Part shown: one piece after another, positions 939-31,985 of the stretch | Layout: each line of letters opens with the position of its first letter | Numbering within the stretch: position 1 is the stretch's first letter | NCBI RefSeq assembly: GCF_000619845.1 | Contig: NZ_JHUX01000003.1 | Span: 1,570,064 to 1,602,063 of the forward strand | Direction: 5' to 3' | From: Alkanindiges illinoisensis DSM 15370 | GTDB lineage: Bacteria; Pseudomonadota; Gammaproteobacteria; Pseudomonadales; Moraxellaceae | DNA length: 32,000 nucleotides | The notes under the pieces: model-generated | Databases searched by the model: none | Seen by the model: the letters and a program-made list of their open reading frames with translations, nothing else | What the model was told of the DNA's origin: nothing | Program-made: the position numbers and the translations under genes

Positions 939-1520
939 CTAACTATCCAGCTTATGCTGCACTTTCTCTAGCTTTTGCTCAATGTCCAGCAGCTTATACA
1001 CCAGGTCATTTAAATTATAGGTGACCTGCGGATTGTTGACTGCACTCTCCAGTGAGCTGCGCCAGATGCGGATGTTACCCAGTGCCATGTCCAGCAATAA
1101 ACCTGTGTCGGGCTGTTGATTTGGATTGACTTGCATAGTTCTCCTGTTGTCCGTTGATATTGTTTGGGTGCTGGCAATCCTGTTTAACTGAAAACGCCAG
1201 CCTGCCACCGCCTCATCATACCAAATGGAACTTTTTACAACGCCCGTTCCATGAAAAATTGGATATTTTGCGTCAGCCAGTGACGCAGTAATGTCTTCGA
1301 GTGGTGGCAGGGCTGGCTGTTCTTCCTGCTGTAATAAGGCTCTGATTTGCTCATAGGAAATCACCAGAAAACCATGCTGGGTAGTATGGTTGATGTTATG
1401 CCCCTGCTGCACCAGATAATCTACCGCAGCAAACAGTTGTTTAAGCACTTTGCGGCTTTTCTTGCAGGTGGCCATGACACGATCGCCAATGGGAACGTAA
1501 GGAATGATGGAATCGTTCAT
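939..1520 (-). CDS. Hypothetical protein, 193 aa, no recognisable domain
   Basis: Long ORF with backbone-like composition. Its ATG overlaps the stop of the upstream small ORF (ATGA). The C-terminus looks coiled-coil-like (LNDLVYKLLDIEQKLEKVQHKL). Confidence 0.6.
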   Translation of the reverse strand: MNDSIIPYVPIGDRVMATCKKSRKVLKQLFAAVDYLVQQGHNINHTTQHGFLVISYEQIRALLQQEEQPALPPLEDITASLADAKYPIFHGTGVVKSSIWYDEAVAGWRFQLNRIASTQTISTDNRRTMQVNPNQQPDTGLLLDMALGNIRIWRSSLESAVNNPQVTYNLNDLVYKLLDIEQKLEKVQHKLDS

Positions 1521-1657
1521 TTGGCACCTGCCTTGATTTTTGCAATCAGTTTGGCAAGCGTGCTTTGAGGTATAGCAAAGTTGGATGCGGTTAAGCGGTT
1601 ATAGCAGATAAGGTCGAATTGAGTGCTTGGACGTGCAGGTGCCTGACGTAACTTCAT
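1517..1657 (-). CDS. Small (46 aa) putative HTH protein, translationally coupled to the 193-aa ORF
   Basis: MKLRQAPARPSTQFDLICYNRLTASNFAIPQSTLAKLIAKIKAGAK. ATGA overlap with the downstream gene. Below the 60-aa cutoff of the ORF track. The RBS is weak (gagaaaag). Confidence 0.4.
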   Translation of the reverse strand: MKLRQAPARPSTQFDLICYNRLTASNFAIPQSTLAKLIAKIKAGAK

Positions 1658-1688
1658 AGTCTTTTCTCGTGAATAAGTTTTAAGTTAT

Positions 1689-1791
1689 CCACCACCTAAC
1701 TTTCCTAGGGTTAGGGTGGCAGATCAGACAAGGCTAGGAAAACCGCTTCACGAGTCGCGGCCAGCCCGAAGGCTGCCCCATCTGATCCACC
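1689..1791 (-). ncRNA. Structured leader or cis-regulatory element upstream of the small-ORF operon; family not recognised
   Basis: Nested complementarity: 1715-1728 pairs with 1781-1791 (GGTGGcAGATCAGA/TCTGATCCACC). The inner hairpin 1762-1775 reads CAGCC-UUCG-GGCUG on the minus strand, a cUUCGg tetraloop. A second hairpin is 1689-1700/1710-1719. Confidence 0.35.
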
Positions 1792-1816
1792 ATAAAAGTA
1801 TGACCAAACAGTTGGC

Positions 1817-1840
1817 AAAAAAATAGCCGCTGAAGCGACT
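1817..1840 (-). terminator. Rho-independent terminator downstream of the NDT-like gene
   Basis: The minus strand reads AGTCGC-TTCA-GCGGCT followed by ATTTTTTT. It lies about 100 nt after the stop at 1941. Confidence 0.6.
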
Positions 1841-1909
1841 GTGTTTTTGCGCTCGTGAAGTATATGCGAGTTTCCTAGGCTCGACACCGATTTTGCGGTG
1901 TAAATATAT

Positions 1910-1938
1910 CTTGTGTCATAGCGTGCTGTTATGTCAAG
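1910..1938 (+). repeat. Cargo-island 29-bp repeat, copy 1
   Basis: CTTGTGTCATAGCGTGCTGTTATGTCAAG. It ends 2 nt from the stop codon of the NDT-like gene. Confidence 0.9.
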
Positions 1939-1940
1939 GG

Positions 1941-2873
1941 TTATTTAAGTACTATCATCTCCATAATACTAACATCTGGTACAACTGTTCTCACTAACTC
2001 TAAAAGTCTATCAAGCATAAAAGTAAAAGGTTTATCCGAAATAATATAGATACTGTTTACCTCCTTATCAGTGAAAAGAGAGTTATTTTTATTAGAATTT
2101 TCTACTGAAAGTCTTTCAAATTTCAATTTAGGATATATTGAATTTATTTGAGTTTTAAAACTTTCATATTCTATATCAGTTAAATATCTTTGTAATATTA
2201 ATCTTAAAATATTCTTTTTGACTTCAATATCATAACTTGATTTGGCTAAGTTTTGATTAGATTGATTTAAAGTAACCTTAGATAATAAATTTTCAATATT
2301 GTCTAACCGATCTAATAGATATCGTTGTGGATCATTCTCCTGAATTTGATCTCTAATAATTTTAGTACTTGAAACCCTATGAACTGGATTATCAGCTTCA
2401 GTTTGGCTCATAGCATCAACAACCGCAGCTTCTAATGCTGGTTTTAATTCTTCAGCTCCATGCATATCATTAAAATAAAAAATGGTACGTTCAGCAGCAA
2501 TATCAAATGGTAGTTTAGTACCATGCTCCGCTAAAACTACAACTGGCTTATTGGTGCAATGCCGTACTGCCAGCTCATACATGACATTGGGATTAAGCTC
2601 ACTTAAATTAGCAATTACCAAATCATCAAATAGGACACGTTCGATAACCTGGCGAGGAATTGAGCCAGCCACTGAGATTTCGTGAGCTGCAACAACATCA
2701 AAACCCATTTCCTTAAGAACAGGGCGCATTACTGCTCTAATTAGTCCATCGGCCGCCCTACGGGTTGGCGTGTTGTCTCCACCAATTGGGGTGACAATAA
2801 AGCATTTTTTCTTTTCATTAACAGCATCATCACTCATGTTTTCATTATTGGTAGCTGATTTTTTTGCAGTCAC
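1941..2873 (-). CDS. Nucleoside 2-deoxyribosyltransferase-like (TIR-related Rossmannoid) domain protein with an uncharacterised C-terminal domain; candidate defence effector
   Basis: GTG start with a GGA-type RBS 9 nt upstream. N-terminal motifs are KKCFIVTPIGG, DLVIANLSELNPNVMYELAV, NKPVVVLA and LPFDIAAERTIFY. These match the CFVIMPFG...ADLS..NPNV.YELG...KP...PFD pattern I associate with NDT-like folds. The C-terminal ~135 aa are AT-rich-encoded with no recognisable motif. Confidence 0.6.
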   Translation of the reverse strand: MTAKKSATNNENMSDDAVNEKKKCFIVTPIGGDNTPTRRAADGLIRAVMRPVLKEMGFDVVAAHEISVAGSIPRQVIERVLFDDLVIANLSELNPNVMYELAVRHCTNKPVVVLAEHGTKLPFDIAAERTIFYFNDMHGAEELKPALEAAVVDAMSQTEADNPVHRVSSTKIIRDQIQENDPQRYLLDRLDNIENLLSKVTLNQSNQNLAKSSYDIEVKKNILRLILQRYLTDIEYESFKTQINSIYPKLKFERLSVENSNKNNSLFTDKEVNSIYIISDKPFTFMLDRLLELVRTVVPDVSIMEMIVLK

Positions 2874-2904
2874 TTGCTTGTATCCTAATGATCTTTAAAA
2901 ATAG

Positions 2905-2933
2905 CTTGTTCCATAGTGTGCTGTTATGTCAAG
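2905..2933 (+). repeat. Cargo-island 29-bp repeat, copy 2
   Basis: CTTGTTCCATAGTGTGCTGTTATGTCAAG, 26/29 identical to copy 1. It lies in the divergent intergenic region between modules A and B. Confidence 0.9.
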
Positions 2934-2978
2934 ATTTGGACAGAATATTTTGATAAAACTAATAATTTTGGGGTAAGT

Positions 2979-3776
2979 ATGGCGTTTATTGGGGCAATTT
3001 TATTTTTATTCCTTATAGCCGTAGTGGTGGCTACAATAGCTGGTCTAATTAATCCAAAAACGCTTGTAAACAAGAAAAAGCCTGAACAGGTTATGAGCCG
3101 AAAACAGATTCTAGGTAGTGGGATAGCCCTTTGTTTATTGCTGGTTGCTTTGATTGGTGTAGTAGCAAGTGATGATAAGGTGAAAGTAACAACTGCCATT
3201 AACGATCCTAGCCCAGCTGCCGCAAAGAAAGAAGAACCTACTAATCTGACAGTCCAAAATAATAACAATCCTACTGAACCTGCCAGTTCTCAATCTGCTG
3301 AAACAGTCCAGCAAAACCTTGGTATAACCGCTGAAGAATTTCGGCAAAAATTTAATGCTGAACTAAAAAAAGCTGATCTATCAGAATTAAGACCTGTAGC
3401 CGAATTTGATATTAAGCAAGGTGAAAAAGCAGGTACTTTTAATGTGATGTTTGGTGATGCCTTAGGCATGATGGGTGTAGTCGATAAACAGAATAATTTG
3501 AAAAGCCTTATTTTTATGATGGGTAGAACTGATGAGGGTGAAAAAGTTGGACTAAATTTATTATTGCTTAGTTCCTTTGCGGCCCGTGTATTAAATCCAG
3601 AAGTTGAACATGAAAAAACAGCGACTACCTTAATGGGACTTATCCAAAAGGCCATGAAAGATCCTACAGCGGAAAATAATACGCATAGTCAGGTCTTTGG
3701 GAATACTAAATATTACTCATTAGCCAGTCCCTACACGGGTTTATGGGTTGGGTTTGAGCCTGTGGAGAAAAAATAA
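2979..3776 (+). CDS. Membrane protein: two N-terminal TM helices, low-complexity linker, ~160-aa periplasm-facing globular domain
   Basis: I prefer ATG 2979 (MAFIGAILFLFLIAVVVATIAGL...) to the track GTG 2916, which lies inside repeat copy 2. TM1 is followed by a KKK-rich loop, then TM2 (ILGSGIALCLLLVALIGVVA), then a P/N/S/Q-rich linker. The stop overlaps the next start (TAATG). Confidence 0.7.
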   Translation: MAFIGAILFLFLIAVVVATIAGLINPKTLVNKKKPEQVMSRKQILGSGIALCLLLVALIGVVASDDKVKVTTAINDPSPAAAKKEEPTNLTVQNNNNPTEPASSQSAETVQQNLGITAEEFRQKFNAELKKADLSELRPVAEFDIKQGEKAGTFNVMFGDALGMMGVVDKQNNLKSLIFMMGRTDEGEKVGLNLLLLSSFAARVLNPEVEHEKTATTLMGLIQKAMKDPTAENNTHSQVFGNTKYYSLASPYTGLWVGFEPVEKK

Positions 3777-4759
3777 TGATGACAGATCCAGGGTTTTTAA
3801 GTGAATTGGAGTATAGCCGAAAGCATGAGGAAGAAGTGCAACGATTAAAGGTTGAGGCTGAACTTAATCAATTTAATAAAGAAAAAGATAAGATCCTAGC
3901 CAATATAAACAGGTTGGAAAACAAATTAAGTAAAGTAAGTAAAAATTCAACTCTCATAAAGAGTATTGATAGTATTAAGCATGCTATGAATACTGAACTT
4001 AAACATCCTCGTGAAGTAACACTATTAAATCTGCTTGAATCAAGCATTCATAGTATGAATCTAGAAATTGAAAAATATGAAAATAAACTTCTTTTGGAAA
4101 ATGCCTTATTTGGAAACATTATTGCAGAATTAGCCGCAATTGAAAGGGCTTTTCAAATTTATAGAGAATCTGCATATTCATTTGAAAAATTTGTCAGGGA
4201 ACCATTTAATGTTTCTTTTACAGAAGTTTTGGAAGAATTGAGGTCATTTAGAAAATCGAGAGCTATTGCTGATAATGCGCGCACAGAAGATTTTTATAAT
4301 AAGGCTGTTGAAAAATATACTGACCTAGAAAGTATATATAGAAAATATTTTTATAATGGAGTAGCTATTCTTGCGGCTTTTACACTTTTATCTACTTTAT
4401 TTAAAAAATACTTTATTGAATATGATGTGATTAGCACAATTGATTTTTGGATAATTAAAGGTTCTGCCCTAATTATTGGAATAACTTTAATTACTTATTT
4501 TTTGAAACAGTCTACTCGTTATCAGAAACTGGCTGACCAAAACTATCAGACACAAGTTGAGTTACAAGCTTATCCTAGCTATATAGAAAGTATTCCTACC
4601 AGTGAAGCAGCTGCTATCCGTAAAGAACTGGCCCTTAAATATTTTGGTCGTGAAATCGATAAAGACAGCAGTAGTTCTAATGAATTACTCACTGACCAGA
4701 TTCAAGCGAGTACTGAGCTGGTCAAAGCATCTATAGAAATTATTAAAAATGTAAAATGA
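3776..4759 (+). CDS. Coiled-coil protein with a C-proximal TM hairpin (possible SLATT-like 2TM effector)
   Basis: About 200 aa of heptad-like, E/K/L/N-rich sequence. Two TM helices follow (GVAILAAFTLLSTLF and GSALIIGITLITYFL), then an ~80-aa tail. Translationally coupled to the upstream gene. Confidence 0.7.
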   Translation: MMTDPGFLSELEYSRKHEEEVQRLKVEAELNQFNKEKDKILANINRLENKLSKVSKNSTLIKSIDSIKHAMNTELKHPREVTLLNLLESSIHSMNLEIEKYENKLLLENALFGNIIAELAAIERAFQIYRESAYSFEKFVREPFNVSFTEVLEELRSFRKSRAIADNARTEDFYNKAVEKYTDLESIYRKYFYNGVAILAAFTLLSTLFKKYFIEYDVISTIDFWIIKGSALIIGITLITYFLKQSTRYQKLADQNYQTQVELQAYPSYIESIPTSEAAAIRKELALKYFGREIDKDSSSSNELLTDQIQASTELVKASIEIIKNVK

Positions 4760-4767
4760 ATATGCTT

Positions 4768-4796
4768 CTTGTGTCTTAGCGTGCCGCTATGTCATT
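4768..4796 (+). repeat. Cargo-island 29-bp repeat, copy 3
   Basis: CTTGTGTCTTAGCGTGCCGCTATGTCATT, 24/29 identical to copy 1. It starts 9 nt after the stop of the module B operon. Confidence 0.85.
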
Positions 4797-4865
4797 ATTC
4801 AAAAATAATTTAGTATTTTTTTGGATTGACATACTTATAAAACATTCAAAAGTCAAGGAATGACG

Positions 4866-5075
4866 ATGAAAAAAGCATTTTTATTAAGTTTAATTATTGG
4901 CATTAATCCTGCTGCTATGGCAGCAACTTGCAAAGACTTTAAGACGCATGCACAGGCTCAGGCTTATTTTGATGCCAAAAAGCCGGGTTATAAGCGACTG
5001 GATCGGGACAAGGATGGTAGCGCCTGTGACTGCTTGCCTGGTGGTAATGGGAAGAAATGTCCAAAGCGGAAGTAA
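4866..5075 (+). CDS. Secreted Excalibur calcium-binding domain miniprotein
   Basis: AAGGA RBS at 4855-4859 favours ATG 4866 over 4860. Signal peptide MKKAFLLSLIIGINPAAMAA, then CKDF..HAQAQAYF....YKRLDRDKDGSACDC, the Excalibur DxDxDGxxC(E/D) motif. Confidence 0.75.
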   Translation: MKKAFLLSLIIGINPAAMAATCKDFKTHAQAQAYFDAKKPGYKRLDRDKDGSACDCLPGGNGKKCPKRK

Positions 5076-5171
5076 CTGCTGCGGAGCAATTAAACTAATT
5101 CGTAACCATAATAGTAATGCCTATAATCGGCAGTGTCAGTAATTTTTAAAAGGTTAATTTAAAAGGATTTA

Positions 5172-7886
5172 ATGATGAACAACTTGAAATTTTCTGAATT
5201 AAAGAAAGAACTTCAAAATAAGATGCGTACTGTCAAAGATTTAGCTCGATATATAGATAAGAAGCGAGAATTACATCCGAATTATAGTATTTTTCTAGGT
5301 TCAGGTGCTTCTGTGACATCTGGCATTAAAAGTGGAGGGCAACTTGTTAATGAGTGGAGAAGAGAAATATATGAACAAACAAGTGAAAAACCATATCTTA
5401 TAAGCATCGAAGATGCGAATAAAACTCTTAGTGAGGAGGACGCTCTTAAGCAAGCTGTTCAATATCTTATTCATGAACAAGGTTCTTGGTACAATCCACT
5501 TAATGAATATTCATCCTTATTTGAAAGAAAATTTGATTTACCTTCACAACGTAGAAGGTTTGTTGAAAAATTAGTAGATGAAAAATTACCATCTATCGGT
5601 TACCTGTATCTTATCTCATTAATAAACGAAGGTTACTTTAATACAATTTTTACAACTAATTTTGATGATTTGATTAATGAAGCTTTCTACCAGTTTTCCA
5701 ATATTAGACCACATGTTTGTGCTCATGACTCATCAATAGGAAGCTTATCTGTATTATCAAATAGACCTAAAATTATCAAACTTCATGGTGATTATCTTTT
5801 TGACGATATTAAAAATACATTAAGAGAAACTGAAAGCTTAGAAACTAATACTAAAGAGAAATTTATTGAATTTTCTAAAGAAAGTGGCTTAATTATTGTT
5901 GGCTATTCAGGCCAAGATCGTTCAGTAATGGACGTAATAAATTATTTACTCCAGCAAGAAGAATATTTGAAAAATGGTTTATATTGGTGTTTTAGAAAAG
6001 ATGATGAGATCCCGCATGAAATTAGAAAAATTCTATGGAGAGATAAAGTTTATTGTATTGAAATCGAAGGATATGATCAATTTCTAGCAGATATATTTCT
6101 ACAATTAAATTGCAAATTATCTTTAACTGATAAAGATTTCCATTCTAAACGTGATAAATGTATTAAAAGTTTCATTGAAGATAATTTTAATCTAAATACA
6201 AGTGAAGCCATTTCAATGCATATTGATGAAATGAAGGCATTAAATAGAAGGCAAGATATTTCAAAATTTTTGCAACAGATAAAGGAAACAGATCTCAATC
6301 AATTAGATCAAATAGAATTTAAAAGTATGCTTGAAATAGAAACTTTGATAAAAGAAAGAAAATTTGATGAAGTTGATAAAAAAATTGATCTAAAGCTTAT
6401 GGAAAAATTAAATCCTGATCTTAAAGAAAATTATTTTAAATTAAAATTAAAAAGTTATAAAATGGCTGGAGAAACAAAAAAGGCTATAGACTTTATTGAT
6501 GAGTTAATCAGAACTGACCCTTTCAATCAAAAGTTATTAACATGGAAGTTGGATTTTTTAGAAGCATTAAAGGAGCAGATTTATACTGTTAAAGATTTTT
6601 GTGATAAAAACCAATACTCTTATACAATACGAAATAAATTAGTACGTTTACTTTTAGAATATAATGAATCCAGAAATAAGTGGCATGAAACTATTACTCT
6701 TGAAAATTCTTTAGATATTATAAATGATAGCTTAAAAATTAATTCTAGCTTAGATAATAGTGCTTATACTCTTAAGTTAAAAATATTAGATCAAATTAAT
6801 AAGAAAAAACTTAAAACTAGTCTAAAACCATCAGAGAAAGATAAATTAAATCAGCCTTTAAAGGACTTAATAAAATCTGCAGAATCAATTAATCCTATAC
6901 ATCTTCAATTCCTCGAATTAAAAAAACTCTTTGCATTAATAACTCTTGATCCATCTGATATTAATAATTATATACAAGCATGTACATTTACTAACTCTTA
7001 CGTTAATAATAAATTACAAATAAATCTTTTAGAGAAGCAAGTTGCTTTTTACAATACTTTATTATTACATAAAGATTTTAATGATATAGAAACAACTAAC
7101 AACATTGAGAAATTTTTTCTACACGCAGGCAATTATCCACATGCAAATACTAATATGATATTTATAATAGGCAAAGTTGATTTTTTAATTGATAATAAAA
7201 GAGATTTAGGTCAAGGTATCGAAATACTATATGATTTATTAGAAAATGTTGAATCTTATAGTTATATTTTAAGTATTATTAATAGAATTTGTTATGATAA
7301 TTCATCTAATAATTTAAGTCGTATTAAAGTTAAATTGGAAAGTATTAAAAATCTTATTGATCACGAAGATTATTTAATATGTTACTGCTATATTACTGAT
7401 GCAGAGAATAAAACATTAGACGCACTTAAATTTTTTATTGAGTTTTTTGAAATTCAAACAAACAAGCAGAATCATCTTATTAAATACACTTATTTCTTAC
7501 TTAAAGCTGAAAAATACGATGAAGTAATTAAGCTTTATGAAGATAATAAAAGCCTTATACGTGAACTAAGTCATGAAAATCAAGTAGTTCTATCTATAAA
7601 TCTTATTTGTGCTGAAAAGGCTAAGTATCAAGTTCTCAGTGAATCTAATAAATCATTGTTAAATCAATATAGATCTTCAAAGCCTACTCCATCAATATTT
7701 ATATGTGCTTTAGCCCTTTTAGAAGATAATCAGGCTTTTCATCATATGAAAGAACGTATCTATAAAGAATTTAGTGCATATTATGAACTGCGTAGCTGGC
7801 CAGCGATGAGTGAGAAATTTAAGAAACTATTAGATCAAGAATTTCAGAATATTACTGTAGATCCCATATCTAAGTTAGCAAGTTAA
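5172..7886 (+). CDS. SIR2_2-family (ThsA/DSR-type) NAD-binding domain fused to a ~600-aa TPR-like helical-repeat region; candidate NAD+-depleting defence protein
   Basis: N-terminal motifs appear in the order seen in ThsA/DSR SIR2 domains: IFLGSGASVTSGI (G-x-G NAD loop), IFTTNFDDLINEAF (TTN[YF]D), IIKLHGDYLFD (catalytic His) and LIIVGYSGQDRSV. The remainder is K/N/L/I-rich with TPR-like segments (e.g. AIDFIDELIRTDPFNQKLL). Confidence 0.8.
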   Translation: MMNNLKFSELKKELQNKMRTVKDLARYIDKKRELHPNYSIFLGSGASVTSGIKSGGQLVNEWRREIYEQTSEKPYLISIEDANKTLSEEDALKQAVQYLIHEQGSWYNPLNEYSSLFERKFDLPSQRRRFVEKLVDEKLPSIGYLYLISLINEGYFNTIFTTNFDDLINEAFYQFSNIRPHVCAHDSSIGSLSVLSNRPKIIKLHGDYLFDDIKNTLRETESLETNTKEKFIEFSKESGLIIVGYSGQDRSVMDVINYLLQQEEYLKNGLYWCFRKDDEIPHEIRKILWRDKVYCIEIEGYDQFLADIFLQLNCKLSLTDKDFHSKRDKCIKSFIEDNFNLNTSEAISMHIDEMKALNRRQDISKFLQQIKETDLNQLDQIEFKSMLEIETLIKERKFDEVDKKIDLKLMEKLNPDLKENYFKLKLKSYKMAGETKKAIDFIDELIRTDPFNQKLLTWKLDFLEALKEQIYTVKDFCDKNQYSYTIRNKLVRLLLEYNESRNKWHETITLENSLDIINDSLKINSSLDNSAYTLKLKILDQINKKKLKTSLKPSEKDKLNQPLKDLIKSAESINPIHLQFLELKKLFALITLDPSDINNYIQACTFTNSYVNNKLQINLLEKQVAFYNTLLLHKDFNDIETTNNIEKFFLHAGNYPHANTNMIFIIGKVDFLIDNKRDLGQGIEILYDLLENVESYSYILSIINRICYDNSSNNLSRIKVKLESIKNLIDHEDYLICYCYITDAENKTLDALKFFIEFFEIQTNKQNHLIKYTYFLLKAEKYDEVIKLYEDNKSLIRELSHENQVVLSINLICAEKAKYQVLSESNKSLLNQYRSSKPTPSIFICALALLEDNQAFHHMKERIYKEFSAYYELRSWPAMSEKFKKLLDQEFQNITVDPISKLAS

Positions 7887-7909
7887 TATTTTCTATAAAA
7901 TTTATTCAA

Positions 7910-7934
7910 AGCCCTGCTCATCTTTAGTAGGGCT
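7910..7934. terminator. Hairpin between the convergent SIR2 gene and ogr (bidirectional terminator candidate)
   Basis: AGCCCTGCT-catcttt-AGTAGGGCT, a 9-bp stem with one G-U pair. There is a partial T-run on the minus side only. Confidence 0.5.
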
Positions 7935-7942
7935 AACAGTAA

Positions 7943-8203
7943 TTATATAGCTGCATGCTCATCATTCGCGGCCTTACGCTGGGCCGTGATCTCATCATGG
8001 GTTTTAAGCTGGATGCCAGGACGTGGACAGGCGCTTGGTGAAATCTGGTGAGTGATTTCCAAATTACCGCCACAAGTAAAACCGCATAGATAATTACTGC
8101 ACTGAAACCAAAGCTGGCGCAAAAGTGGATGCGCTTCCCTGCTGCTTCGTATAGTCATTGATGCTGCACAATGTGGGCATTGAAATTTGCTACGTTGAGC
8201 CAT
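7943..8203 (-). CDS. ogr: Ogr/Delta-family zinc-finger late transcription activator
   Basis: Motif CPHC...(22 aa)...QCSNYLCGFTC gives a four-Cys pattern like P2 Ogr. Its position immediately after gene D is as in P2. Confidence 0.9.
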   Translation of the reverse strand: MAQRSKFQCPHCAASMTIRSSREAHPLLRQLWFQCSNYLCGFTCGGNLEITHQISPSACPRPGIQLKTHDEITAQRKAANDEHAAI

Positions 8204-9975: not shown

Positions 9976-12597
9976 TTAATTATGGTCTTTGTAGCTGTTA
10001 CGGGCACGTGCCTGCTTTTGCTGGTCACGGCGAGTTAGAATTTGCTCTACCTGCTGGGCAATCTGCTGGGGTGACTGTCCTGGTTGTGTATGGAATACAA
10101 ATGAGTTTGTATCGCCCTGGACATGCACCGGTGCAGCAGCTGGACGTGTCTGCAGCTGAACCGGTTTAATCTTGTTGACTAGCGGTGGCGTTACTGCCGG
10201 AATTGACGCTAGTGCTGGATTGCTTGACAGGCCAGCATAGGCAGGGGCTGATGTACCAAAACTAAAGGAAGGCATGGCATTTTTAATATTTGCCCAAACG
10301 CCTTTTAGTTTTTCAAAACCGGACGTTAGGCCGTTGATTAAGCCATTAATGATCAGGCTGCCAAAATCAGTAAACTTGGCAGGCAGATCAACTCCAAACC
10401 AGCTTAATACCTTGGCAAATACAGAATAAAACAGGCCTAGCGGCGACCAATTGGTGATGAGCTTACTCATGCCCCCAATGCCACCACCAAAAGCCGTTTT
10501 TGCTTCTGTCATGCGTGCACCAAACCAGCTGCCGATCGGCGCAAATTTGTCAGTGATAGATTGCTTTACAGAGGTGAATTTTTCTGTAATCGATGTGCCT
10601 AAATCGCTAAAAAAGCCATATATAGGTTCCCAGTTCTTGTAGATCAGGTATGCACCTGCAGCAATCGCTGTAATAGCCAACCCAATAGGATTCATTAAAA
10701 ATAGTCTGCCTACCCATAAAAATATACGGCCTAGACCAAAGAAGGCAGATTTGGCAGCATTAAATACAGTGGGTAATACACTAAAAATACGGGTAAGTAA
10801 TGTGCCACCTGTGCCCAGTGAAGCCATAATCAAGCGAAGGCTGAACATCCCTAGGATCAATGGGGAGAATACGGCCAAAGCGCCACCAATAACGATCAGG
10901 CTTGCTGCAATACCAAGCAGGCCTACACCCAGCATTTTTGCCAGTGCCGGGTTTTGCTGCAGCCACTCAGTAAAGGTTTTTAATGCACCAGTGGCCGTTT
11001 CAAGTGCCTGGGTATAGATGGGTAAAATGGTCTGGCCAAAGTCCAGATAAGCATCATGCAGTTTGGCCTTGGCTTCCAGCTCTTTACCTGCAGTGGTGTC
11101 TTTTGCCTTATCATAAATCTGGTCGATATTATCCGCACCCTCATTGAGCTTGGCATTTTTGTGTACCTGAGTGCGTTGCTGATACATGGTGGCAAACAGG
11201 TTTGATGCAGTCCGGTTGCTAAAAATACTGCCGATAGCATCAATGATATCCCCTTCCTTGGTAATGCCCTTTGCTTTCAACGCAGGCACCAGAATTTGTT
11301 CCATCCATGCGAACTGGTCACGTTTAAATAAATCTGCACCTTTAATCGCGCCAACATCTAAAAATGCAAGCTGGCCTGCTTTATCGCGCTGCACTTTTCG
11401 GCTATCAGAAATTAGCCCAAATTTGTCCAGGTTATCCATTGCCCTATTGGTGGTACGGCCCTGATACAAGTTTTGATATGCCGACATTACAGCTGTCCCC
11501 ACGCGGTGCCCACCCATTTCCTGTACGAATGGTTCCATCTTGTAGTAAAAGGCTTTGTTATCAAGTCCTTTAGCGGCAATACCACCTGTTTTAATGGCAT
11601 TTAGCCATTCTTCACCCTGAACACGGCCACCAGTTGCTGTAATCACCTGTTGAATAATATTGGCCTGTTCCTTGAAAGCAGCTTCACTTTTTAGGCCATT
11701 ACGCATTTCAATGACTTTAAGCATGTCCATGAATTTTTTTTCATTTTCTGCACCATGCTCATTGCCATACATGGCTTCATTGCCAAATTTCATTTTAGCC
11801 AGGATGGGTGCTGCCATTTCTGCATGATGCACGTCAGCAAATGCAGTCAAACCATCACGCATCAGTGTCAGGTTTTCAACCGTAGATGTGCCAAAAGTTT
11901 TCATAGCCCGGGCATGTTTAATGGACTCTTTAGTAACTTGGTCACCTAAACCTAATGATGCAATGCGATAAGTTTCAGTTTCATAATGCTTGCTTTCATT
12001 AATAGGCTTTTTGAACTGGTACATGGCACCAATGCCAGTCATGGCTGCCCCTGCACCATACATGGCTGCCGTACGCAGCTTGCCCGATGTGTTTTGATAG
12101 TTTTGCTGCAGCTGGTTTAAATGCTGCAATTGCTGCTGTTGCTGCTGTAGTCCCTGATTACTCTGATTGAGCTGGGTACGAAGCCGCTGCTGGTGATTAG
12201 CAAGGTTATTGGTAGATAGGCCTGCCTGATTCAAATCGGCACGCATGCGCTGCAACTGGATGCTGTTTTGCTCATGCTGCTGTTTTAGGCGTTTTGCAGC
12301 TGCTACAGACTTATCAAAATCACGGGTTAAAGCTGCAGATGGGTTGGTGGCCATCTGCTGACGTAAGGATTTGATTTTATCCTGCATGTCTTTTAAGGCA
12401 CGTGCGCTGTCCTGTACTGCTTTTTTCTGACGAATGTAGCCATCTACTTTGCCCTGCTGGGCTTCAAGCTCTTTAATTTGTTGTTTGGTTTGCCTTAAAG
12501 CATTGGCAGCAGCTTTACTACTACCAACAATAGTGCGTAAAGCGGGGCTTAACTTGTTAGCCGCCCCGAAAATAACTTCTAGTTTTAATGTTTTCAT
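9976..12597 (-). CDS. T: Tail tape measure protein T
   Basis: 873 aa with an N-terminal coiled coil (Q-rich), Gly/Ala-rich hydrophobic segments and a conserved position after E/E'. Confidence 0.9.
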   Translation of the reverse strand: MKTLKLEVIFGAANKLSPALRTIVGSSKAAANALRQTKQQIKELEAQQGKVDGYIRQKKAVQDSARALKDMQDKIKSLRQQMATNPSAALTRDFDKSVAAAKRLKQQHEQNSIQLQRMRADLNQAGLSTNNLANHQQRLRTQLNQSNQGLQQQQQQLQHLNQLQQNYQNTSGKLRTAAMYGAGAAMTGIGAMYQFKKPINESKHYETETYRIASLGLGDQVTKESIKHARAMKTFGTSTVENLTLMRDGLTAFADVHHAEMAAPILAKMKFGNEAMYGNEHGAENEKKFMDMLKVIEMRNGLKSEAAFKEQANIIQQVITATGGRVQGEEWLNAIKTGGIAAKGLDNKAFYYKMEPFVQEMGGHRVGTAVMSAYQNLYQGRTTNRAMDNLDKFGLISDSRKVQRDKAGQLAFLDVGAIKGADLFKRDQFAWMEQILVPALKAKGITKEGDIIDAIGSIFSNRTASNLFATMYQQRTQVHKNAKLNEGADNIDQIYDKAKDTTAGKELEAKAKLHDAYLDFGQTILPIYTQALETATGALKTFTEWLQQNPALAKMLGVGLLGIAASLIVIGGALAVFSPLILGMFSLRLIMASLGTGGTLLTRIFSVLPTVFNAAKSAFFGLGRIFLWVGRLFLMNPIGLAITAIAAGAYLIYKNWEPIYGFFSDLGTSITEKFTSVKQSITDKFAPIGSWFGARMTEAKTAFGGGIGGMSKLITNWSPLGLFYSVFAKVLSWFGVDLPAKFTDFGSLIINGLINGLTSGFEKLKGVWANIKNAMPSFSFGTSAPAYAGLSSNPALASIPAVTPPLVNKIKPVQLQTRPAAAPVHVQGDTNSFVFHTQPGQSPQQIAQQVEQILTRRDQQKQARARNSYKDHN

Positions 12598-14862: not shown

Positions 14863-14940
14863 AAAAATTAAGCCTGTGATCTGGTGTTATATTCAGATGA
14901 CAAGCTTACAAATCATGGGTTTGATGGGTAGCGGTGGCAG

Positions 14941-14961
14941 TTGTTTAAAAGTGCAGTACAA
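14941..14961 (-). promoter_or_regulatory. Ogr-type activator dyad of the PF late promoter
   Basis: TTGT-N13-ACAA dyad (TTGTactgcacttttaaACAACTGCCA on the minus strand), centred about 89 nt upstream of the FI ATG. It shares the TTTAAACAACTGCCA half-site with the PV site. Confidence 0.6.
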
Positions 14962-14966
14962 CACAT

Positions 14967-30836: not shown

Positions 30837-30850
30837 GCAGAACCAATAAA

Positions 30851-30880
30851 AAATCCCTCGATATTTGAGGGATTTTTTTT
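30851..30880 (+). terminator. Rho-independent terminator of the P-Q operon
   Basis: AAATCCCTC-gatattt-GAGGGATTT followed by a T-run. Confidence 0.85.
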
Positions 30881-30936
30881 GCCCAAAGAAAATGCACCAC
30901 AATGGGGCATCAGGCAACCAGCTGACCTGGCTCCGG

Positions 30937-30955
30937 GCAGTTGCCCCACCCCACC
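30937..30955. other. Candidate cos cohesive-end core
   Basis: GCAGTTGCCCCACCCCACC lies about 100 nt after the Q stop. It matches 12/19 positions, in the same orientation relative to Q, of the P2 cos sequence as I recall it (complement of GGCGAGGCGGGGAAAGCAC). It is the only GC-rich patch in this interval. Confidence 0.35.
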
Positions 30956-31203
30956 TGCGTTGTCTAAATAGGGCTGTTTTACTGCAAGACCAGATAAGCC
31001 AAAAAATTAGGGAAAAGTACGCTGGTATTAGGGCTTTTAAGAGAAATATATGTTTTTTCTGTACTGCATTTTACGACACCACCCTACATTCGCTGAACTG
31101 ACAAAAATTCGCTCATTTTAGGCAGTCTTACAAAGCATATTGGTATCACCAGTAAAAGATAAAAGACCATAGGAATGTTTGTAATGAGGGATTAGCAAGA
31201 ATT

Positions 31204-31458
31204 TGAAGTAATAAAGTAATAACTAGACTTAAACTGCTGATTTTATTAATAAACATATATTACATTTTGAAGTATTTTTTTGTAATTTTATAAGTAATAT
31301 TTTATAAGTATCTGTTTTTACTATAAATATATATTAGTAGGTATTGCCTTTTTATACAGTAATAAGTTACTTCAATATTACCTCATTGTTACTTCACTGA
31401 TTAGCTGCATCTTATTGTTTATATTATGGTATTTAAAAAATATTACTTTATTACCTCA
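31204..31458. repeat. AT-rich region with opposed arrays of a ~9-bp iteron (TGAAGTAAT / RTTACYTCA)
   Basis: Plus-orientation copies are at 31204-31212, 31214-31220, 31268-31275, 31291-31298 and 31305-31310. Inverted copies are at 31366-31374, 31377-31385 and 31388-31396 (exact 11-bp phasing), plus 31442-31450 and 31450-31458. A 12-bp direct repeat ATTTTATAAGTA occurs at 31285-31296 and 31299-31310. Confidence 0.6.
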
Positions 31459-31628
31459 AAAAAACGCTAGTCCCCAACTTTTTTCAGACTCCCAAAATCT
31501 GGCTGTTTTGGTGGTTTTTCATTCAAAACTTTTAAAAACGATGGGAATGGAATGGGAATAGAAAGGCAGCTACTAGCAACGTACTAATACACTAACTTGC
31601 TGTTTTACAATGCTTTATAATCAGGAAA

Positions 31629-31705
31629 TGGGGTGGCTAATGGGACTCGAACCCACGACAACCGAGATCACAACCCGGGGCTCTACCAACTGAGCTATAG
31701 CCACC
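31629..31705 (-). tRNA. tRNA-His (GUG), with G-1 and encoded CCA
   Basis: The reverse complement GGTGGCTATAGCTCAGTTGGTAGAGCCCCGGGTTGTGATCTCGGTTGTCGTGGGTTCGAGTCCCATTAGCCACCCCA folds as a cloverleaf. It is near-identical to enterobacterial tRNA-His. Confidence 0.95.
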
Positions 31706-31763
31706 ATAGACAATGCAAGATGCATTATTTTGATGCTTTAATATAAAAGCTGGCGGCATGATG

Positions 31764-31840
31764 TGGCGCGCCTGACAGGATTCGAACCTGTGACCACCCG
31801 CTTAGAAGGCGGGTGCTCTATCCAACTGAGCTACAGGCGC
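31764..31840 (-). tRNA. tRNA-Arg (UCU)
   Basis: The reverse complement is GCGCCTGTAGCTCAGTTGGATAGAGCACCCGCCTTCTAAGCGGGTGGTCACAGGTTCGAATCCTGTCAGGCGCGCCA. The anticodon loop is CTTCTAA. Confidence 0.95.
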
Positions 31841-31908
31841 ATGATTGCTGATGCCTAACAAGTGTTTAGGTTATCACGCGGCTGCACTACAATAAACCGC
31901 CGATTAAC

Positions 31909-31985
<77 letters not shown>

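What the first reader, a model, noticed from the sequence alone, without database searches (positions are those of the whole stretch)
1910..7940. AT-rich five-gene cargo island between ogr and the immunity region of a P2-like prophage: candidate multi-cassette defence island at a non-canonical locus
The phage backbone is colinear with P2 on both sides (D-ogr to the right, repressor/early switch to the left). In P2 the ogr-to-C interval holds attP and int. Here it instead holds about 6 kb of visibly AT-rich DNA encoding K/N/I-rich proteins. The island is bracketed by terminator hairpins (1817-1840 and 7910-7934), and no integrase is present.

The gene content is an NDT/TIR-like enzyme, a membrane-protein pair, a secreted Excalibur miniprotein and a SIR2-helical-repeat protein. 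This is typical of anti-phage cargo and not of phage propagation functions.

P2-like phages are known to carry defence systems at the tin/old (cos-proximal) and Z/fun (G-FI) loci. In this window the G-FI junction (14863-14966) is empty and the cos-proximal region is non-coding, so the cargo sits at a third position.
Basis: partly seen in the sequence, partly recalled or inferred. Interest (0 to 1): 0.8.

Follow-up and report, generated by a model that had tools for sequence, protein, structure and literature searches.

The report
Variable cargo hotspot in P2-like prophage
A 6-kb AT-rich block inside an Alkanindiges P2-like prophage is a real accessory-gene hotspot holding independently mobile single-gene cassettes, two of them likely untested anti-phage enzymes; this extends a known theme and is not a new kind of system.

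Summary
Window 1,940-7,890 has 30.9% GC against 45.6 ± 0.6% for the phage backbone. It carries five real genes between a C4 antisense RNA/immunity module and ogr-D, in a P2-like prophage of Alkanindiges illinoisensis.

In 22 related Moraxellaceae prophages the same ogr-to-c4 interval holds different cargo. A second A. illinoisensis strain (ogr 96% identical) shares none of the five genes. So this is a genuine variable hotspot.

It is not one system. Each gene is distributed independently.
- The 904-aa SIR2 + TPR-solenoid protein has full-length homologues (38% identity) at the canonical gpA-gpQ hotspot of E. coli P2 prophages. It keeps the sirtuin catalytic residues and has a DSR2-like architecture, so it is most likely a single-protein NAD+-depleting abortive-infection defence.
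- The 310-aa protein has a DNPH1/NDT-type N-glycosidase fold. It is a widespread solo prophage moron.
- The two membrane proteins and the Excalibur miniprotein have no defence evidence.

Relatives carry umuDC-SRAP, DarTG, HicAB and HNH genes at this site, so it is a general moron hotspot and only partly a defence one. The integrase is not missing: it lies about 5 kb left of the window. A 38-nt repeat marks each cassette junction.

Novelty is modest and nothing here has been tested experimentally.

The parts
1712..1797 (-). C4 antisense RNA gene. It is the start of an immI-like module (c4, 46-aa ORF 1517-1657, 193-aa ORF 939-1520) and forms the left backbone anchor of the hotspot.
   Evidence: Rfam RF01695, 69.8 bits against a gathering score of 45, E 8e-12, full model length. 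The region is conserved in relatives.
1816..1840 (-). Intrinsic terminator (stem 1825-1840 plus T-run). It is conserved in relatives and insulates c4 from leftward transcription coming out of the cargo.
   Evidence: Terminator scan. The hairpin and A/T-run are conserved in six related loci (alignment A3).
1901..1938 (+). Junction repeat R, copy 1. It is the last conserved backbone element before the variable DNA.
   Evidence: the repeat finder family D1. No matches in 50 shuffles. Conserved next to c4 in L010, L012, L013, L017 and L021.
1941..2873 (-). Cassette 1: a 310-aa NDT/DNPH1-like N-glycosidase-fold protein with a variable C-terminal alpha/beta domain.
   Evidence: Foldseek top hits are DNPH1, NDT and BcmB (E 4e-5, TM 0.67-0.75 normalised to the target). 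Glu100 in NPNVMYELA is invariant. PADLOC TIR effector E 3e-7. phrog_10872 E 1e-61. 2,679 homologues.
2896..2933 (+). Junction repeat R, copy 2 (87% identical to copy 1). It lies 46 nt upstream of the next + strand gene.
2979..3776 (+). Cassette 2a: a 265-aa protein with two N-terminal transmembrane helices and a soluble C-terminal domain.
   Evidence: Hydropathy. phrog_23546 E 2e-38. A homologue sits in the same interval of Bracchivirus U2F1 with HicAB and without the next gene.
3776..4759 (+). Cassette 2b: a 327-aa protein with a variable coiled-coil N-terminus and a conserved C-terminal two-helix membrane region. It is a Moraxellaceae-restricted family and a frequent resident of the c4-proximal end of this hotspot.
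   Evidence: 286 homologues; every named hit among the 120 listed is Acinetobacter or Alkanindiges, and none has a Pfam domain. Present in 15 of 22 related loci, often in tandem. The start overlaps the upstream stop (TAATG).
4759..4796 (+). Junction repeat R, copy 3 (74% identical to copy 1). It lies 64 nt upstream of the Excalibur gene.
4860..5075 (+). Cassette 3a: a 71-aa secreted Excalibur (Ca-binding) miniprotein.
   Evidence: PF05901, 28.1 bits against a cutoff of 22. N-terminal hydrophobic signal-like segment. 64%-identical copy in L013; fused to a larger secreted protein in L017.
5172..7886 (+). Cassette 3b: a 904-aa protein with an N-terminal SIR2 NADase-type domain (about residues 35-330) and a C-terminal TPR-like alpha-solenoid (about 380-900).
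   Evidence: PF13289 E 1e-14. PADLOC pAgo-associated SIR2 models E 1e-63. phrog_14359 full length E 2e-187. Invariant GAGxS, N162, D164 and H204. AF2 pLDDT 84. Foldseek finds SPARSA SIR2 and then full-length DSR2. Homologues sit in E. coli P2 hotspots.
7910..7934 (.). Hairpin between the convergent SIR2 and ogr genes. It is a possible bidirectional terminator and the right edge of the island.
   Evidence: Read directly from the sequence. Not called by the terminator scan.
7943..8203 (-). ogr late-gene activator, the right backbone anchor.
   Evidence: PF04606 E 6e-15. 96% identical in the conspecific prophage L017.

Best explanation
The interval between the C4-RNA/immunity module and ogr is the main accessory-gene (moron) hotspot of a Moraxellaceae lineage of P2-like phages. 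In this lineage int and attP have moved next to cos.

**Cassette structure (shown).** In this prophage the hotspot holds three cassettes, each preceded by a copy of a conserved 38-nt element (R). In relatives R lies 35-50 nt upstream of the first cargo gene. The cassettes are:
1. an inverted NDT-like gene;
2. two translationally coupled membrane-protein genes;
3. an Excalibur miniprotein gene followed by a SIR2-TPR gene.

The genes are unrelated modules that were acquired separately.

**Functions (inferred).**
- SIR2-TPR is a single-protein abortive-infection defence. The TPR solenoid would bind a protein of an invading phage. This would release the SIR2 domain to hydrolyse NAD+, stopping the infected lysogen and the invader. 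This is the logic shown for DSR2.
- The NDT-like protein is a nucleotide or NAD+ N-glycosidase expressed from the lysogen. Its variable C-terminal domain would set specificity.
- The membrane proteins could be superinfection-exclusion or envelope-conversion factors.
- The Excalibur protein is an extracytoplasmic Ca-binding factor of unknown role.

**What is shown and what is not.** Shown: the anatomy, the hotspot variability, the independent mobility of the genes, the folds and the conserved catalytic residues. Inferred: all biochemical activities and any phage-resistance phenotype.
For: **Variability of the interval**
- 22 related loci share the order D-ogr-[2.5-9 kb variable]-c4/Rha/p193-repressor-cox-primase.
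- Within that set, the SIR2, NDT-like and first membrane-protein genes are unique to the window.
- The conspecific prophage L017 (ogr 96% identical) carries five different genes.

**Independence of the five genes**
- The NDT-like gene sits next to int in A. baumannii relatives.
- It lies beyond the primase in L032.
- It also occurs in an unrelated Pseudomonas prophage and in Streptococcus, Staphylococcus and Enterococcus phages.
- The first membrane-protein gene occurs with HicAB and without the second one.
- SIR2-TPR is solo at the gpA-gpQ hotspot in E. coli P2 prophages and is listed as the single-gene arrangement 'SIR2_2' in Rousset et al., Table S5A.
- SIR2-TPR lies next to gpD in two other Acinetobacter P2-like prophages.
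- SIR2-TPR is solo in Aeromonas and K. aerogenes, once beside IS elements and a DUF4238 gene.

**SIR2-TPR**
- The catalytic and NAD-binding residues are invariant in 49 homologues.
- The architecture resembles DSR2 and the SIR2 domain is of the SPARSA type.

**NDT-like protein**
- The fold and the invariant Glu are shown.
- An NDT-like effector that depletes NAD+ is known from retron Ec86 (PMC13276650).

**Repeat R**
- Three copies lie at the cassette junctions. None was found in shuffled sequence. Two copies flank a cassette in L017.

**Foreign composition**
- The island GC lies about 24 sd below that of 6-kb backbone windows.
Against: - No gene here or in its family has a reported phage-resistance phenotype that I could find.
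- SIR2-TPR does not match the PADLOC DSR1/DSR2 models, and only its SIR2 domain matches candidate PDC-S65.
- The NDT-like protein has no Pfam or NCBIfam hit. Its fold match is moderate: E about 1e-5, with a TM-score normalised to the query of about 0.3 because only the N-terminal domain aligns.
- The same hotspot in relatives carries umuDC-SRAP and other non-defence cargo. Location alone therefore does not imply defence.
- The role of R as a promoter or operator is unproven. I could not fit a convincing sigma-70 -35/-10 pair inside it.
- The Foldseek full-length matches to DSR2 have TM about 0.2 and rmsd above 29 Å. They show a shared architecture only; the two structures do not superpose.
Confidence: 0.62

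Rival explanations
1. The five genes form one integrated multi-gene defence system. In this reading an NDT/TIR-like signal generator activates membrane effectors and/or the SIR2 NADase, in the manner of Thoeris or of the TIR+2TM+1TM system of phage AC1.
For: - All five genes are adjacent in one AT-rich block.
- A TIR protein with two membrane proteins is a validated P2-hotspot system (PMC9122126).
- Thoeris pairs a TIR protein with a SIR2 effector.
- The NDT-like protein has a weak hit to a PADLOC TIR effector model.
Against: - No two of the five genes recur as a set in any of the 22 related loci clustered. The same holds for the other contexts examined.
- The NDT-like protein shows no similarity to the AC1 TIR (BLASTP E 1.5; hhalign probability 0.2%).
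- The SIR2 protein has a TPR solenoid where Thoeris ThsA has a SLOG ligand-binding domain.
- The gene composition is heterogeneous, with GC from 0.24 to 0.44.
- Junction repeats separate the cassettes.
Confidence: 0.06
2. The island is lysogenic-conversion or host-fitness cargo unrelated to phage defence. In this reading the envelope and secreted proteins alter the cell surface, the SIR2 protein acts as a regulatory deacylase or ADP-ribosyltransferase, and the NDT-like enzyme works in nucleotide salvage.
For: - Relatives carry clearly non-defence cargo at the same site, namely umuDC and SRAP.
- Three of the five proteins have no defence-model hit.
- Excalibur and signal-peptide or transmembrane features point to the envelope.
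- NDT and DNPH1 are metabolic enzymes.
Against: - The SIR2 domain is closest to the NADase domain of pAgo-associated defence proteins (E 1e-63 in PADLOC; PDB).
- Its fusion to a long TPR sensor-like solenoid mirrors DSR2.
- The family recurs at P2 defence hotspots and beside DUF4238 and IS elements.
- The NDT-like gene is a solo, oppositely oriented gene in the lysogeny modules of many unrelated prophages. This is the usual setting of exclusion and defence genes.
- DarTG sits at the same hotspot in A. junii.
Confidence: 0.22
3. The AT-rich block is not phage cargo. In this reading it is host or other mobile-element DNA that landed in a decaying prophage.
For: - The composition is strongly deviant.
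- There is no integrase in the window.
Against: - No transposase or recombinase lies in or next to the block.
- Both flanks are intact phage modules.
- A full set of P2 late genes, terminase, portal, an early operon with primase and an integrase is present.
- Every relative has cargo at exactly this point.
- All five proteins match PHROG families or have homologues on phage contigs.
- The element spans about 37 kb, from the integrase to tRNA-His. This is my estimate.
Confidence: 0.03

Closest known systems
P2-like phage defence hotspots (gpA-gpQ 'old/tin' locus; Rousset et al. 2022, PMC9122126; minor hotspots in PMC13586616)
   Same: - A fixed backbone interval of a P2-like prophage holds short, AT-rich, interchangeable cassettes, many of them single-gene.
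- The same SIR2-TPR family occupies the E. coli hotspot.
- The cargo is a mixture of defence, toxin-antitoxin and other accessory genes.
   Different: - The position is ogr-to-immunity, whereas the canonical hotspot is gpA-gpQ.
- The phage lineage (Moraxellaceae, Bracchivirus-like) has int next to cos and a c4/antirepressor module bordering the hotspot.
- A junction repeat separates the cassettes.
- The cargo families are mostly uncharacterised.
DSR2 (defence-associated sirtuin 2, Bacillus subtilis)
   Same: - It is a single polypeptide with an N-terminal SIR2 NADase-type domain carrying the catalytic Asn/His and a long C-terminal alpha-solenoid.
- Foldseek aligns the full length (E 3e-8).
   Different: - There is no detectable sequence relationship outside the generic SIR2 fold. 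No PADLOC DSR hit was found, and DSR2 is absent from the profile-versus-PDB hits.
- The solenoid here is TPR-like, whereas DSR2 has a HEAT-like solenoid.
- The trigger and the oligomeric state are unknown.
SIR2-APAZ of short pAgo systems (SPARSA; PDB 8jkz, 8in8)
   Same: It is the closest SIR2 domain by sequence (E 1e-28 with the family profile; PADLOC E 1e-63) and by structure.
   Different: There is no APAZ domain and no Argonaute gene anywhere in the window. The C-terminal part is a TPR solenoid.
NDT superfamily N-glycosidases (DNPH1/Rcl, nucleoside 2'-deoxyribosyltransferase, BcmB/MilB) and the NDT-like effector of retron Ec86
   Same: - The N-terminal domain has a flavodoxin-like fold with the catalytic Glu in an (F/Y)-E-L motif and a Gly-rich N-terminal loop.
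- An NDT-like toxin is a known defence effector.
   Different: - No Pfam PF05014 hit.
- It carries an extra coiled-coil and a variable C-terminal alpha/beta domain.
- No reverse-transcriptase-sized gene lies in the island or its flanks, and no retron or RT model matched the proteins searched.
- The substrate is unknown.
Rst_2TM_1TM_TIR (phage AC1 system, Rousset 2022)
   Same: Superficially similar gene content at a P2-like hotspot: a TIR/NDT-clan enzyme plus two membrane proteins.
   Different: - No sequence or profile similarity of the enzymes.
- The three genes here are not co-inherited, and the enzyme gene is divergently oriented.
P1/P7 immI region (c4 antisense RNA - icd - ant)
   Same: The left border of the island is a bona fide C4 RNA followed by small ORFs. 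In relatives these include a Rha-family regulator.
   Different: It lies in a P2-like genome, and the downstream proteins (46 aa, 193 aa) have no Pfam match. It is context only and does not belong to the cargo.

Membership tests
Prophage accessory/defence hotspot (variable interval between conserved backbone genes) | Conserved flanking genes with different gene content in related elements | tested here: met
   22 related loci; the clustering shows many cargo families that occur only once or twice. A conspecific prophage shares none of the five genes.
Canonical P2 defence hotspot (Rousset 2022) | Located between replication gene gpA and portal gpQ, next to cos | tested here: not met
   The island lies between c4/repressor and ogr. 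The portal-cos side of the window (30837-31628) is non-coding.
SIR2 NADase/deacylase superfamily | Rossmann NAD-binding GAGxS motif and catalytic Asn/Asp/His | tested here: met
   G42, G44, A45, S46, N162, D164 and H204 are invariant in 49 homologues. PF13289 E 1e-14.
DSR1/DSR2 | Sequence membership (family HMM or detectable homology beyond the SIR2 core) | tested here: not met
   No DSR model among the PADLOC hits at E <= 0.01. The profile search of PDB sequences returns no DSR2.
DSR1/DSR2 | Architecture: N-terminal SIR2 plus a long C-terminal helical-repeat sensor in one polypeptide | tested here: met
   AF2 model with pLDDT 84, all-helical from residue 344 to 902. Foldseek full-length alignments to DSR2.
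DSR1/DSR2 | NADase activated by binding a phage structural protein; protects by NAD+ depletion | not testable with these tools
   Needs infection assays and biochemistry.
SPARSA (short pAgo + SIR2-APAZ) | APAZ domain fused to SIR2 and an adjacent pAgo gene | tested here: not met
   The PDB and PADLOC matches cover only the SIR2 domain (query residues about 35-330). The C-terminus is TPR-like, and no Argonaute-sized gene lies nearby.
Thoeris | ThsA (SIR2-SLOG or TM-Macro) co-occurring with a TIR ThsB | tested here: not met
   No SLOG domain. The SIR2 and NDT-like genes are never linked in the other genomes examined.
Rst_2TM_1TM_TIR (AC1) | Homology to the AC1 TIR protein and conserved three-gene linkage | tested here: not met
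   BLASTP E 1.5; hhalign probability 0.2%. No linkage of the three genes.
NDT / DNPH1 N-glycosidase superfamily | Flavodoxin-like fold with a catalytic Glu nucleophile | tested here: met
   Foldseek hits to DNPH1, NDT and BcmB, probability 1.00, TM 0.67-0.75 relative to the target. E100 is invariant.
NDT / DNPH1 N-glycosidase superfamily | Sequence-level family membership (Pfam PF05014 or related) | tested here: not met
   No Pfam or NCBIfam hit at E <= 0.01. The profile search against PDB sequences returns nothing.
Retron with NDT-like effector | Adjacent reverse transcriptase and msr/msd ncRNA | tested here: not met
   No RT-sized gene or RT domain near the NDT-like gene. Rfam finds only C4 and tRNAs in the window.
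C4 antisense RNA (RF01695) | Covariance-model score above the gathering threshold | tested here: met
   69.8 bits against 45, full-length match at 1712-1797(-).
Excalibur domain (PF05901) | Score above the Pfam gathering threshold | tested here: met
   28.1 bits against 22.
Integron-like cassette array | Repeated recombination sites at cassette junctions plus a dedicated recombinase | tested here: inconclusive
   A 38-nt repeat lies at all three junctions and in a related prophage. No recombinase lies nearby, and the repeat may simply be a duplicated promoter/operator.

The most novel reading that the evidence does not exclude
The hotspot works as a cassette array. Each cassette carries a copy of a conserved 38-nt promoter/operator-like element (R). 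R would double as the homology patch through which related prophages swap cargo. The NDT-like and SIR2-TPR cassettes would then be two new, very widespread single-gene defences that act by nucleotide or NAD+ N-glycosidic cleavage. The NDT-like family in particular (over 2,600 homologues, in prophage lysogeny modules of both Gram-negative and Gram-positive hosts) would be a previously unrecognised defence family.
Probability: 0.15. Interest if true: 0.7.

Novelty: new variant of a known kind. Interest (0 to 1): 0.45.

Why it matters
**Mapping value.** P2-like prophage hotspots have been mapped mainly in Enterobacteriaceae. Here a Moraxellaceae lineage, which includes many Acinetobacter baumannii prophages, concentrates its accessory genes at a different backbone position. 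The anchors are easy to recognise (ogr on one side, a C4 RNA on the other), so the site can be mined systematically.

**Testable candidates.** Two uncharacterised single-gene candidates emerge.
- The SIR2-TPR protein also occupies the canonical E. coli P2 hotspot. I found no report that it has been validated.
- The NDT-fold protein is found across many unrelated prophages.

**Caution.** The same site carries umuDC, SRAP and toxin-antitoxin modules, so a position in a hotspot does not by itself mean defence.

Tried and rejected
- Near-identity DNA search of the first 10 kb against the GenBank phage collection found nothing. The distant search found only late-gene similarity.
- Exact-protein look-ups failed for the 193-aa protein, for the 904-aa ORF starting at the first ATG, and for the repressor. 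The annotated starts differ or the protein is absent from the index. P0001 (903 aa) worked.
- The viral-contig scan with the NDT-like protein gave no confirmed relatives.
- NCBIfam gave no hit for any island protein.
- PADLOC and Pfam on ten cargo proteins of L017, L010 and L012 gave only an Excalibur domain, HNH_5 and the DarT1-associated NADAR antitoxin.
- Literature searches for PDC-S65, for SIR2-TPR names, and for SIR2 + tetratricopeptide + prophage returned nothing. A search on Bracchivirus/Acinetobacter prophages gave no paper on this locus.
- I considered that the NDT-like gene plus the two membrane genes is the AC1 TIR system. I rejected this on sequence and linkage.
- I considered that the island lies outside the prophage, because P2 prophages end at ogr-attR. 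I rejected this because early genes and the integrase lie to its left and host tRNAs lie beyond cos on the right.
- I tried to read a sigma-70 promoter inside repeat R and found no convincing -35/-10 spacing.
- The exact-pattern scan for R in viral contigs found only the conspecific prophage already held.

Full report
**1. What is there**

The window is a P2-like prophage of Alkanindiges illinoisensis (Moraxellaceae). The 904-aa protein is 100% identical to NCBI's 'SIR2 family protein [Alkanindiges illinoisensis]' on a 1.78-Mb contig.

The late region is colinear with P2. It runs ogr, D, U, tape measure, E-like chaperone, tube, sheath, fibre genes, baseplate, lysis, capsid genes, then divergent terminase and portal.

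Positions 1,900-7,940 have GC 0.309. The rest of the phage has 0.456, and 6-kb backbone windows have sd 0.006. The AT-rich block is therefore real and far outside backbone variation.

It contains five ORFs:

| Coordinates | Size | Description |
|---|---|---|
| 1941-2873(-) | 310 aa | NDT-like |
| 2979-3776(+) | 265 aa | two N-terminal transmembrane helices |
| 3776-4759(+) | 327 aa | two C-terminal hydrophobic helices |
| 4860-5075(+) | 71 aa | signal-like N-terminus plus Excalibur domain |
| 5172-7886(+) | 904 aa | SIR2_2 domain, then helices |

These assignments rest. All five have homologues in other genomes or phage families, so they are genes and not chance ORFs.

**2. The borders**

*Right edge.* A hairpin at 7910-7934 lies between the convergent SIR2 and ogr genes. 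It is not called by the terminator scan.

- A C4 antisense RNA gene lies at 1712-1797(-) (RF01695, 69.8 bits against a gathering score of 45).
- On the same strand it is followed by a 46-aa and a 193-aa ORF.
- In relatives a Rha-family regulator sits between these two ORFs. This makes it an immI-like antirepressor module.
- Beyond it lie an HTH repressor (+) and an RHH/cox-like gene (-).
- Between C4 and the cargo lies a terminator (stem 1825-1840 on the - strand, then a T-run). It is conserved in relatives.

*Integrase.* The native contig shows the early operon continuing left through an 897-aa Toprim primase to a tyrosine integrase. The integrase lies about 5.4 kb beyond window position 1.

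*Right end of the window.* After portal and cos comes an AT-rich non-coding stretch, then host tRNA-His, tRNA-Arg and tRNA-Pro.

So in this lineage int and att lie next to cos, where P2 has old/tin. The ogr-to-immunity interval, where P2 has attP-int, is free for cargo. The island is internal to the prophage.

**3. Is it a hotspot?**

Anchoring on gpD found 20 loci in Acinetobacter, Alkanindiges, Pseudomonas and others. Anchoring on the 327-aa protein found 15 IMG/VR prophage contigs.

In the 21 relatives where both ogr and the repressor were found (22 loci counting the window), the order is D-(methylase in some)-ogr-[variable]-C4/small ORF/Rha/p193-repressor-cox-primase.

Clustering the proteins of the variable part gave these results:
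- The SIR2 gene, the NDT-like gene and the 265-aa membrane-protein gene each occur only in the window.
- The 327-aa family occurs in 15 of 22 loci. It is always at the C4-proximal end and often present as two tandem paralogues.

The strongest case is L017, a second A. illinoisensis strain. Its ogr is 96% identical and its p193 78% identical, yet its cargo is five unrelated genes.

Cargo identified in relatives:
- DarT plus its NADAR antitoxin, i.e. DarTG (A. junii)
- HicAB (Bracchivirus U2F1)
- a RelE/ParE-like pair, judged by eye (L019)
- HNH_5 proteins
- a BRCT protein
- umuD-umuC plus an SRAP peptidase, in five A. baumannii-type contigs

The interval is therefore a general accessory-gene hotspot with some defence content. 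It is not a dedicated defence island.

**4. One system or several?**

Several.
- *NDT-like gene.* In A. baumannii prophages of the same backbone it lies between the end of the early operon and int. In L032 it lies beyond the primase. It is also found in an unrelated Pseudomonas prophage near int and in the lysogeny regions of Streptococcus, Staphylococcus and Enterococcus phages. It is never accompanied by the membrane genes.
- *265-aa protein.* Its homologue sits in the equivalent interval of Bracchivirus U2F1 with HicAB and without the 327-aa gene.
- *SIR2-TPR gene.*
  - It is solo between portal and gpA in E. coli P2 prophages.
  - One member of that E. coli cluster, WP_128553443, is listed in Rousset et al., Table S5A, as the single-gene arrangement 'SIR2_2'.
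  - It sits directly beside gpD in two further Acinetobacter P2-like prophages.
  - It is a solo insertion in Aeromonas and K. aerogenes, once next to IS elements and a DUF4238 gene.

The two membrane genes overlap by one base here (TAATG), so they are probably co-translated. They are not an evolutionarily conserved pair.

**5. A junction repeat**

A 38-nt direct repeat occurs three times, at 1901-1938, 2896-2933 (87% identical) and 4759-4796 (74% identical). These are exactly the three cassette junctions.
- No match at up to 7 mismatches appears in 50 shuffles of the window.
- L017 has two copies flanking one cassette.
- Copy 1 belongs to the conserved backbone next to C4 in L010, L012, L013, L017 and L021.
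- In those loci it ends 35-50 nt upstream of the first cargo gene reading toward ogr. I derived this from the coordinates.
- In the window, copy 1 is followed by the inverted NDT-like gene. Copy 2 then restores the usual arrangement for the next gene.

I read R as the promoter/operator region of the cargo operon. It would be duplicated when cassettes were added and may also serve as a homology patch for exchange. This is inference. I could not place a convincing sigma-70 promoter inside it.

**6. The SIR2-TPR protein**

*Sequence.*
- Pfam SIR2_2 matches residues 158-290.
- PADLOC's pAgo-associated SIR2 models match residues about 37-329 at E 1e-63. Candidate PDC-S65 matches only the SIR2 part. 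No DSR model matches.
- PHROG 14359 matches the full length at E 2e-187. The family is therefore already present in phage collections, with 'unknown function'.
- In 49 homologues, the NAD-binding GAGxS motif and N162, D164 and H204 are invariant.

*Structure.*
- The AlphaFold model (pLDDT 84) has an alpha/beta SIR2 domain followed by about 30 helices in a solenoid.
- Foldseek finds the SPARSA SIR2 first (E 3e-10). It then finds DSR2 over the full length (E 3e-8), with TM about 0.2. This means a shared architecture, not a superposable structure. TPR solenoids follow.
- A family profile against PDB sequences hits only the SPARSA SIR2 (E 1e-28) and, weakly, TPR proteins.

*Most likely mechanism.* This follows the logic experimentally established for DSR2. 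The solenoid recognises a protein of an incoming phage and de-represses the NADase, and NAD+ depletion aborts the infection. Shown here: the domain composition, the conserved catalytic residues, the solo mobility and the residence in phage hotspots. Inferred: the activity, the trigger and the phenotype. I found no paper reporting a test of this family.

**7. The NDT-like protein**

- It has no Pfam or NCBIfam hit. It has a weak PADLOC TIR-effector hit (E 3e-7).
- There are 2,679 homologues. The N-terminal 190 residues are 55-65% identical from Acinetobacter to Pseudomonas, Vibrio and Acidobacteria. The C-terminal roughly 110 residues vary.
- The C-terminal part is also much more AT-rich (GC 0.237 against 0.39).
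- The model (pLDDT 76) has a flavodoxin-like N-domain, a long helical linker and a small alpha/beta C-domain.
- Foldseek's best matches are DNPH1/Rcl, nucleoside 2'-deoxyribosyltransferases and the CMP N-glycosidase BcmB (E 4e-5 to 1e-3, TM 0.55-0.75 relative to the target). TIR domains rank lower.
- Glu100, in the motif NPNVMYELA, is invariant and sits where the NDT/DNPH1 nucleophile lies (the positional equivalence is from my knowledge of the family).
- An NDT-like effector that depletes NAD+ is part of retron Ec86 (PMC13276650).

I therefore favour an N-glycosidase acting on NAD+ or a (deoxy)nucleotide, expressed from the lysogen. Confidence that it is a defence gene is moderate to low.

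**8. The remaining genes**

- The 327-aa family is restricted to Moraxellaceae, has no domain hit, and has a conserved two-helix membrane C-terminus under a variable coiled-coil N-terminus.
- The 265-aa protein has two N-terminal transmembrane helices.
- The Excalibur miniprotein recurs in L013 (64% identical). It is fused to a larger secreted protein in L017.

None of the three hits a defence model. Superinfection exclusion or envelope conversion is a reasonable guess and no more.

**9. Comparison with what is known**

Rousset et al. defined the P2 hotspot between gpA and gpQ and validated several systems there, including a TIR + 2TM + 1TM system in phage AC1. The enzyme here is unrelated to that TIR.

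A 2026 survey of thousands of enterobacterial P2 prophages reports minor defence hotspots (PMC13586616):
- between int and att (3% of the defence systems found in P2 prophages)
- between int and primase (8%)
- in the tail genes (16%)

The int-att position is topologically the ogr-attP-int interval. I found no description of the Moraxellaceae arrangement.

The finding is therefore a new variant of a known kind. It is a well-supported hotspot at a different backbone position in an under-studied P2-like lineage, and its two enzyme candidates are uncharacterised but of familiar types.

**10. Verdict**

- Observation: confirmed.
- Interpretation: partly supported.
  - The interval is variable and multi-cassette.
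  - Defence is likely for SIR2-TPR, possible for the NDT-like gene, and unsupported for the other three genes.
  - 'No integrase' and 'membrane pair' need correction.
- Interest: 0.45.

Noticed in passing
window 939-1797 (- strand): A P1-type C4 antisense RNA (RF01695, 69.8 bits) heads a small operon (46-aa and 193-aa ORFs) inside a P2-like immunity region. Relatives insert a Rha-family regulator between the two ORFs. This looks like an immI-like antirepressor module grafted onto a P2-type C/cox switch.
   Followed up: partly
window 1901-1938, 2896-2933, 4759-4796; L017 12874-12902 and 13714-13742: A 38-nt direct repeat lies at every cassette junction. Copy 1 is conserved backbone, 35-50 nt upstream of the first cargo gene in relatives. 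It contains an imperfect dyad (CATAGYGTGCYGTTATG). It may be an operator/promoter and/or a recombination patch.
   Followed up: partly
window 30837-31985: After the portal gene come a terminator and a GC-rich cos-like stretch. These are followed by about 450 nt of 27% GC non-coding DNA and then tRNA-His, tRNA-Arg and tRNA-Pro on the - strand. This is probably the attR/host junction. The att core was not identified.
   Followed up: partly
L010-L014, L016, L021: about 11,250-12,350 (between gpD and ogr): Most Acinetobacter relatives carry a 263-286-aa ORF between D and ogr. I judged it Dam-like (N6-adenine methyltransferase) from its sequence by eye. Some of these loci also carry a 62-79-aa ORF there. 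In the window D and ogr are adjacent (75 nt), so this is a second small variable site.
   Followed up: no
L030, L031, L036, L037, L044 (about 9.8-12.9 kb): The same hotspot in A. baumannii-type prophage contigs carries umuD-umuC (Peptidase_S24, IMS) plus an SRAP peptidase. These are DNA-damage-tolerance genes delivered by the prophage.
   Followed up: yes
L012 14457-15830: The A. junii prophage carries DarT (PF14487; PADLOC DarT) and the DarT1-associated NADAR antitoxin (PF22397, E 2e-91) at this hotspot.
   Followed up: yes
L013 14595-15287; L017 12912-13679; L018 12838-13317: A secreted protein family (motif DPNxQLGRPNQ) sits next to a separate Excalibur miniprotein in L013 and is fused to an Excalibur domain in L017. 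This is a gene-fusion link. The window keeps only the Excalibur part.
   Followed up: no
L045/L046 6001-6897: In A. baumannii prophages of the same backbone, the NDT-like gene lies between the end of the early operon and the integrase. In this lineage that interval is the counterpart of P2's gpA-cos hotspot.
   Followed up: partly
L051 3426-4805: The A. bohemicus P2-like prophage that carries a SIR2-TPR homologue also has a 459-aa DUF4062 protein beside its repressor. It may be another defence-type cargo gene.
   Followed up: no
window 1941-2273 versus 2274-2873: Within the NDT-like gene, the variable C-terminal domain has GC 0.237 and the conserved N-terminal domain has GC 0.39. This suggests domain-level recombination.
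   Followed up: no
L003-L005 12584-12808: In E. coli P2 prophages a 74-aa ORF on the opposite strand overlaps the 3' end of the SIR2-TPR gene in some annotations. Its significance is unknown.
   Followed up: no
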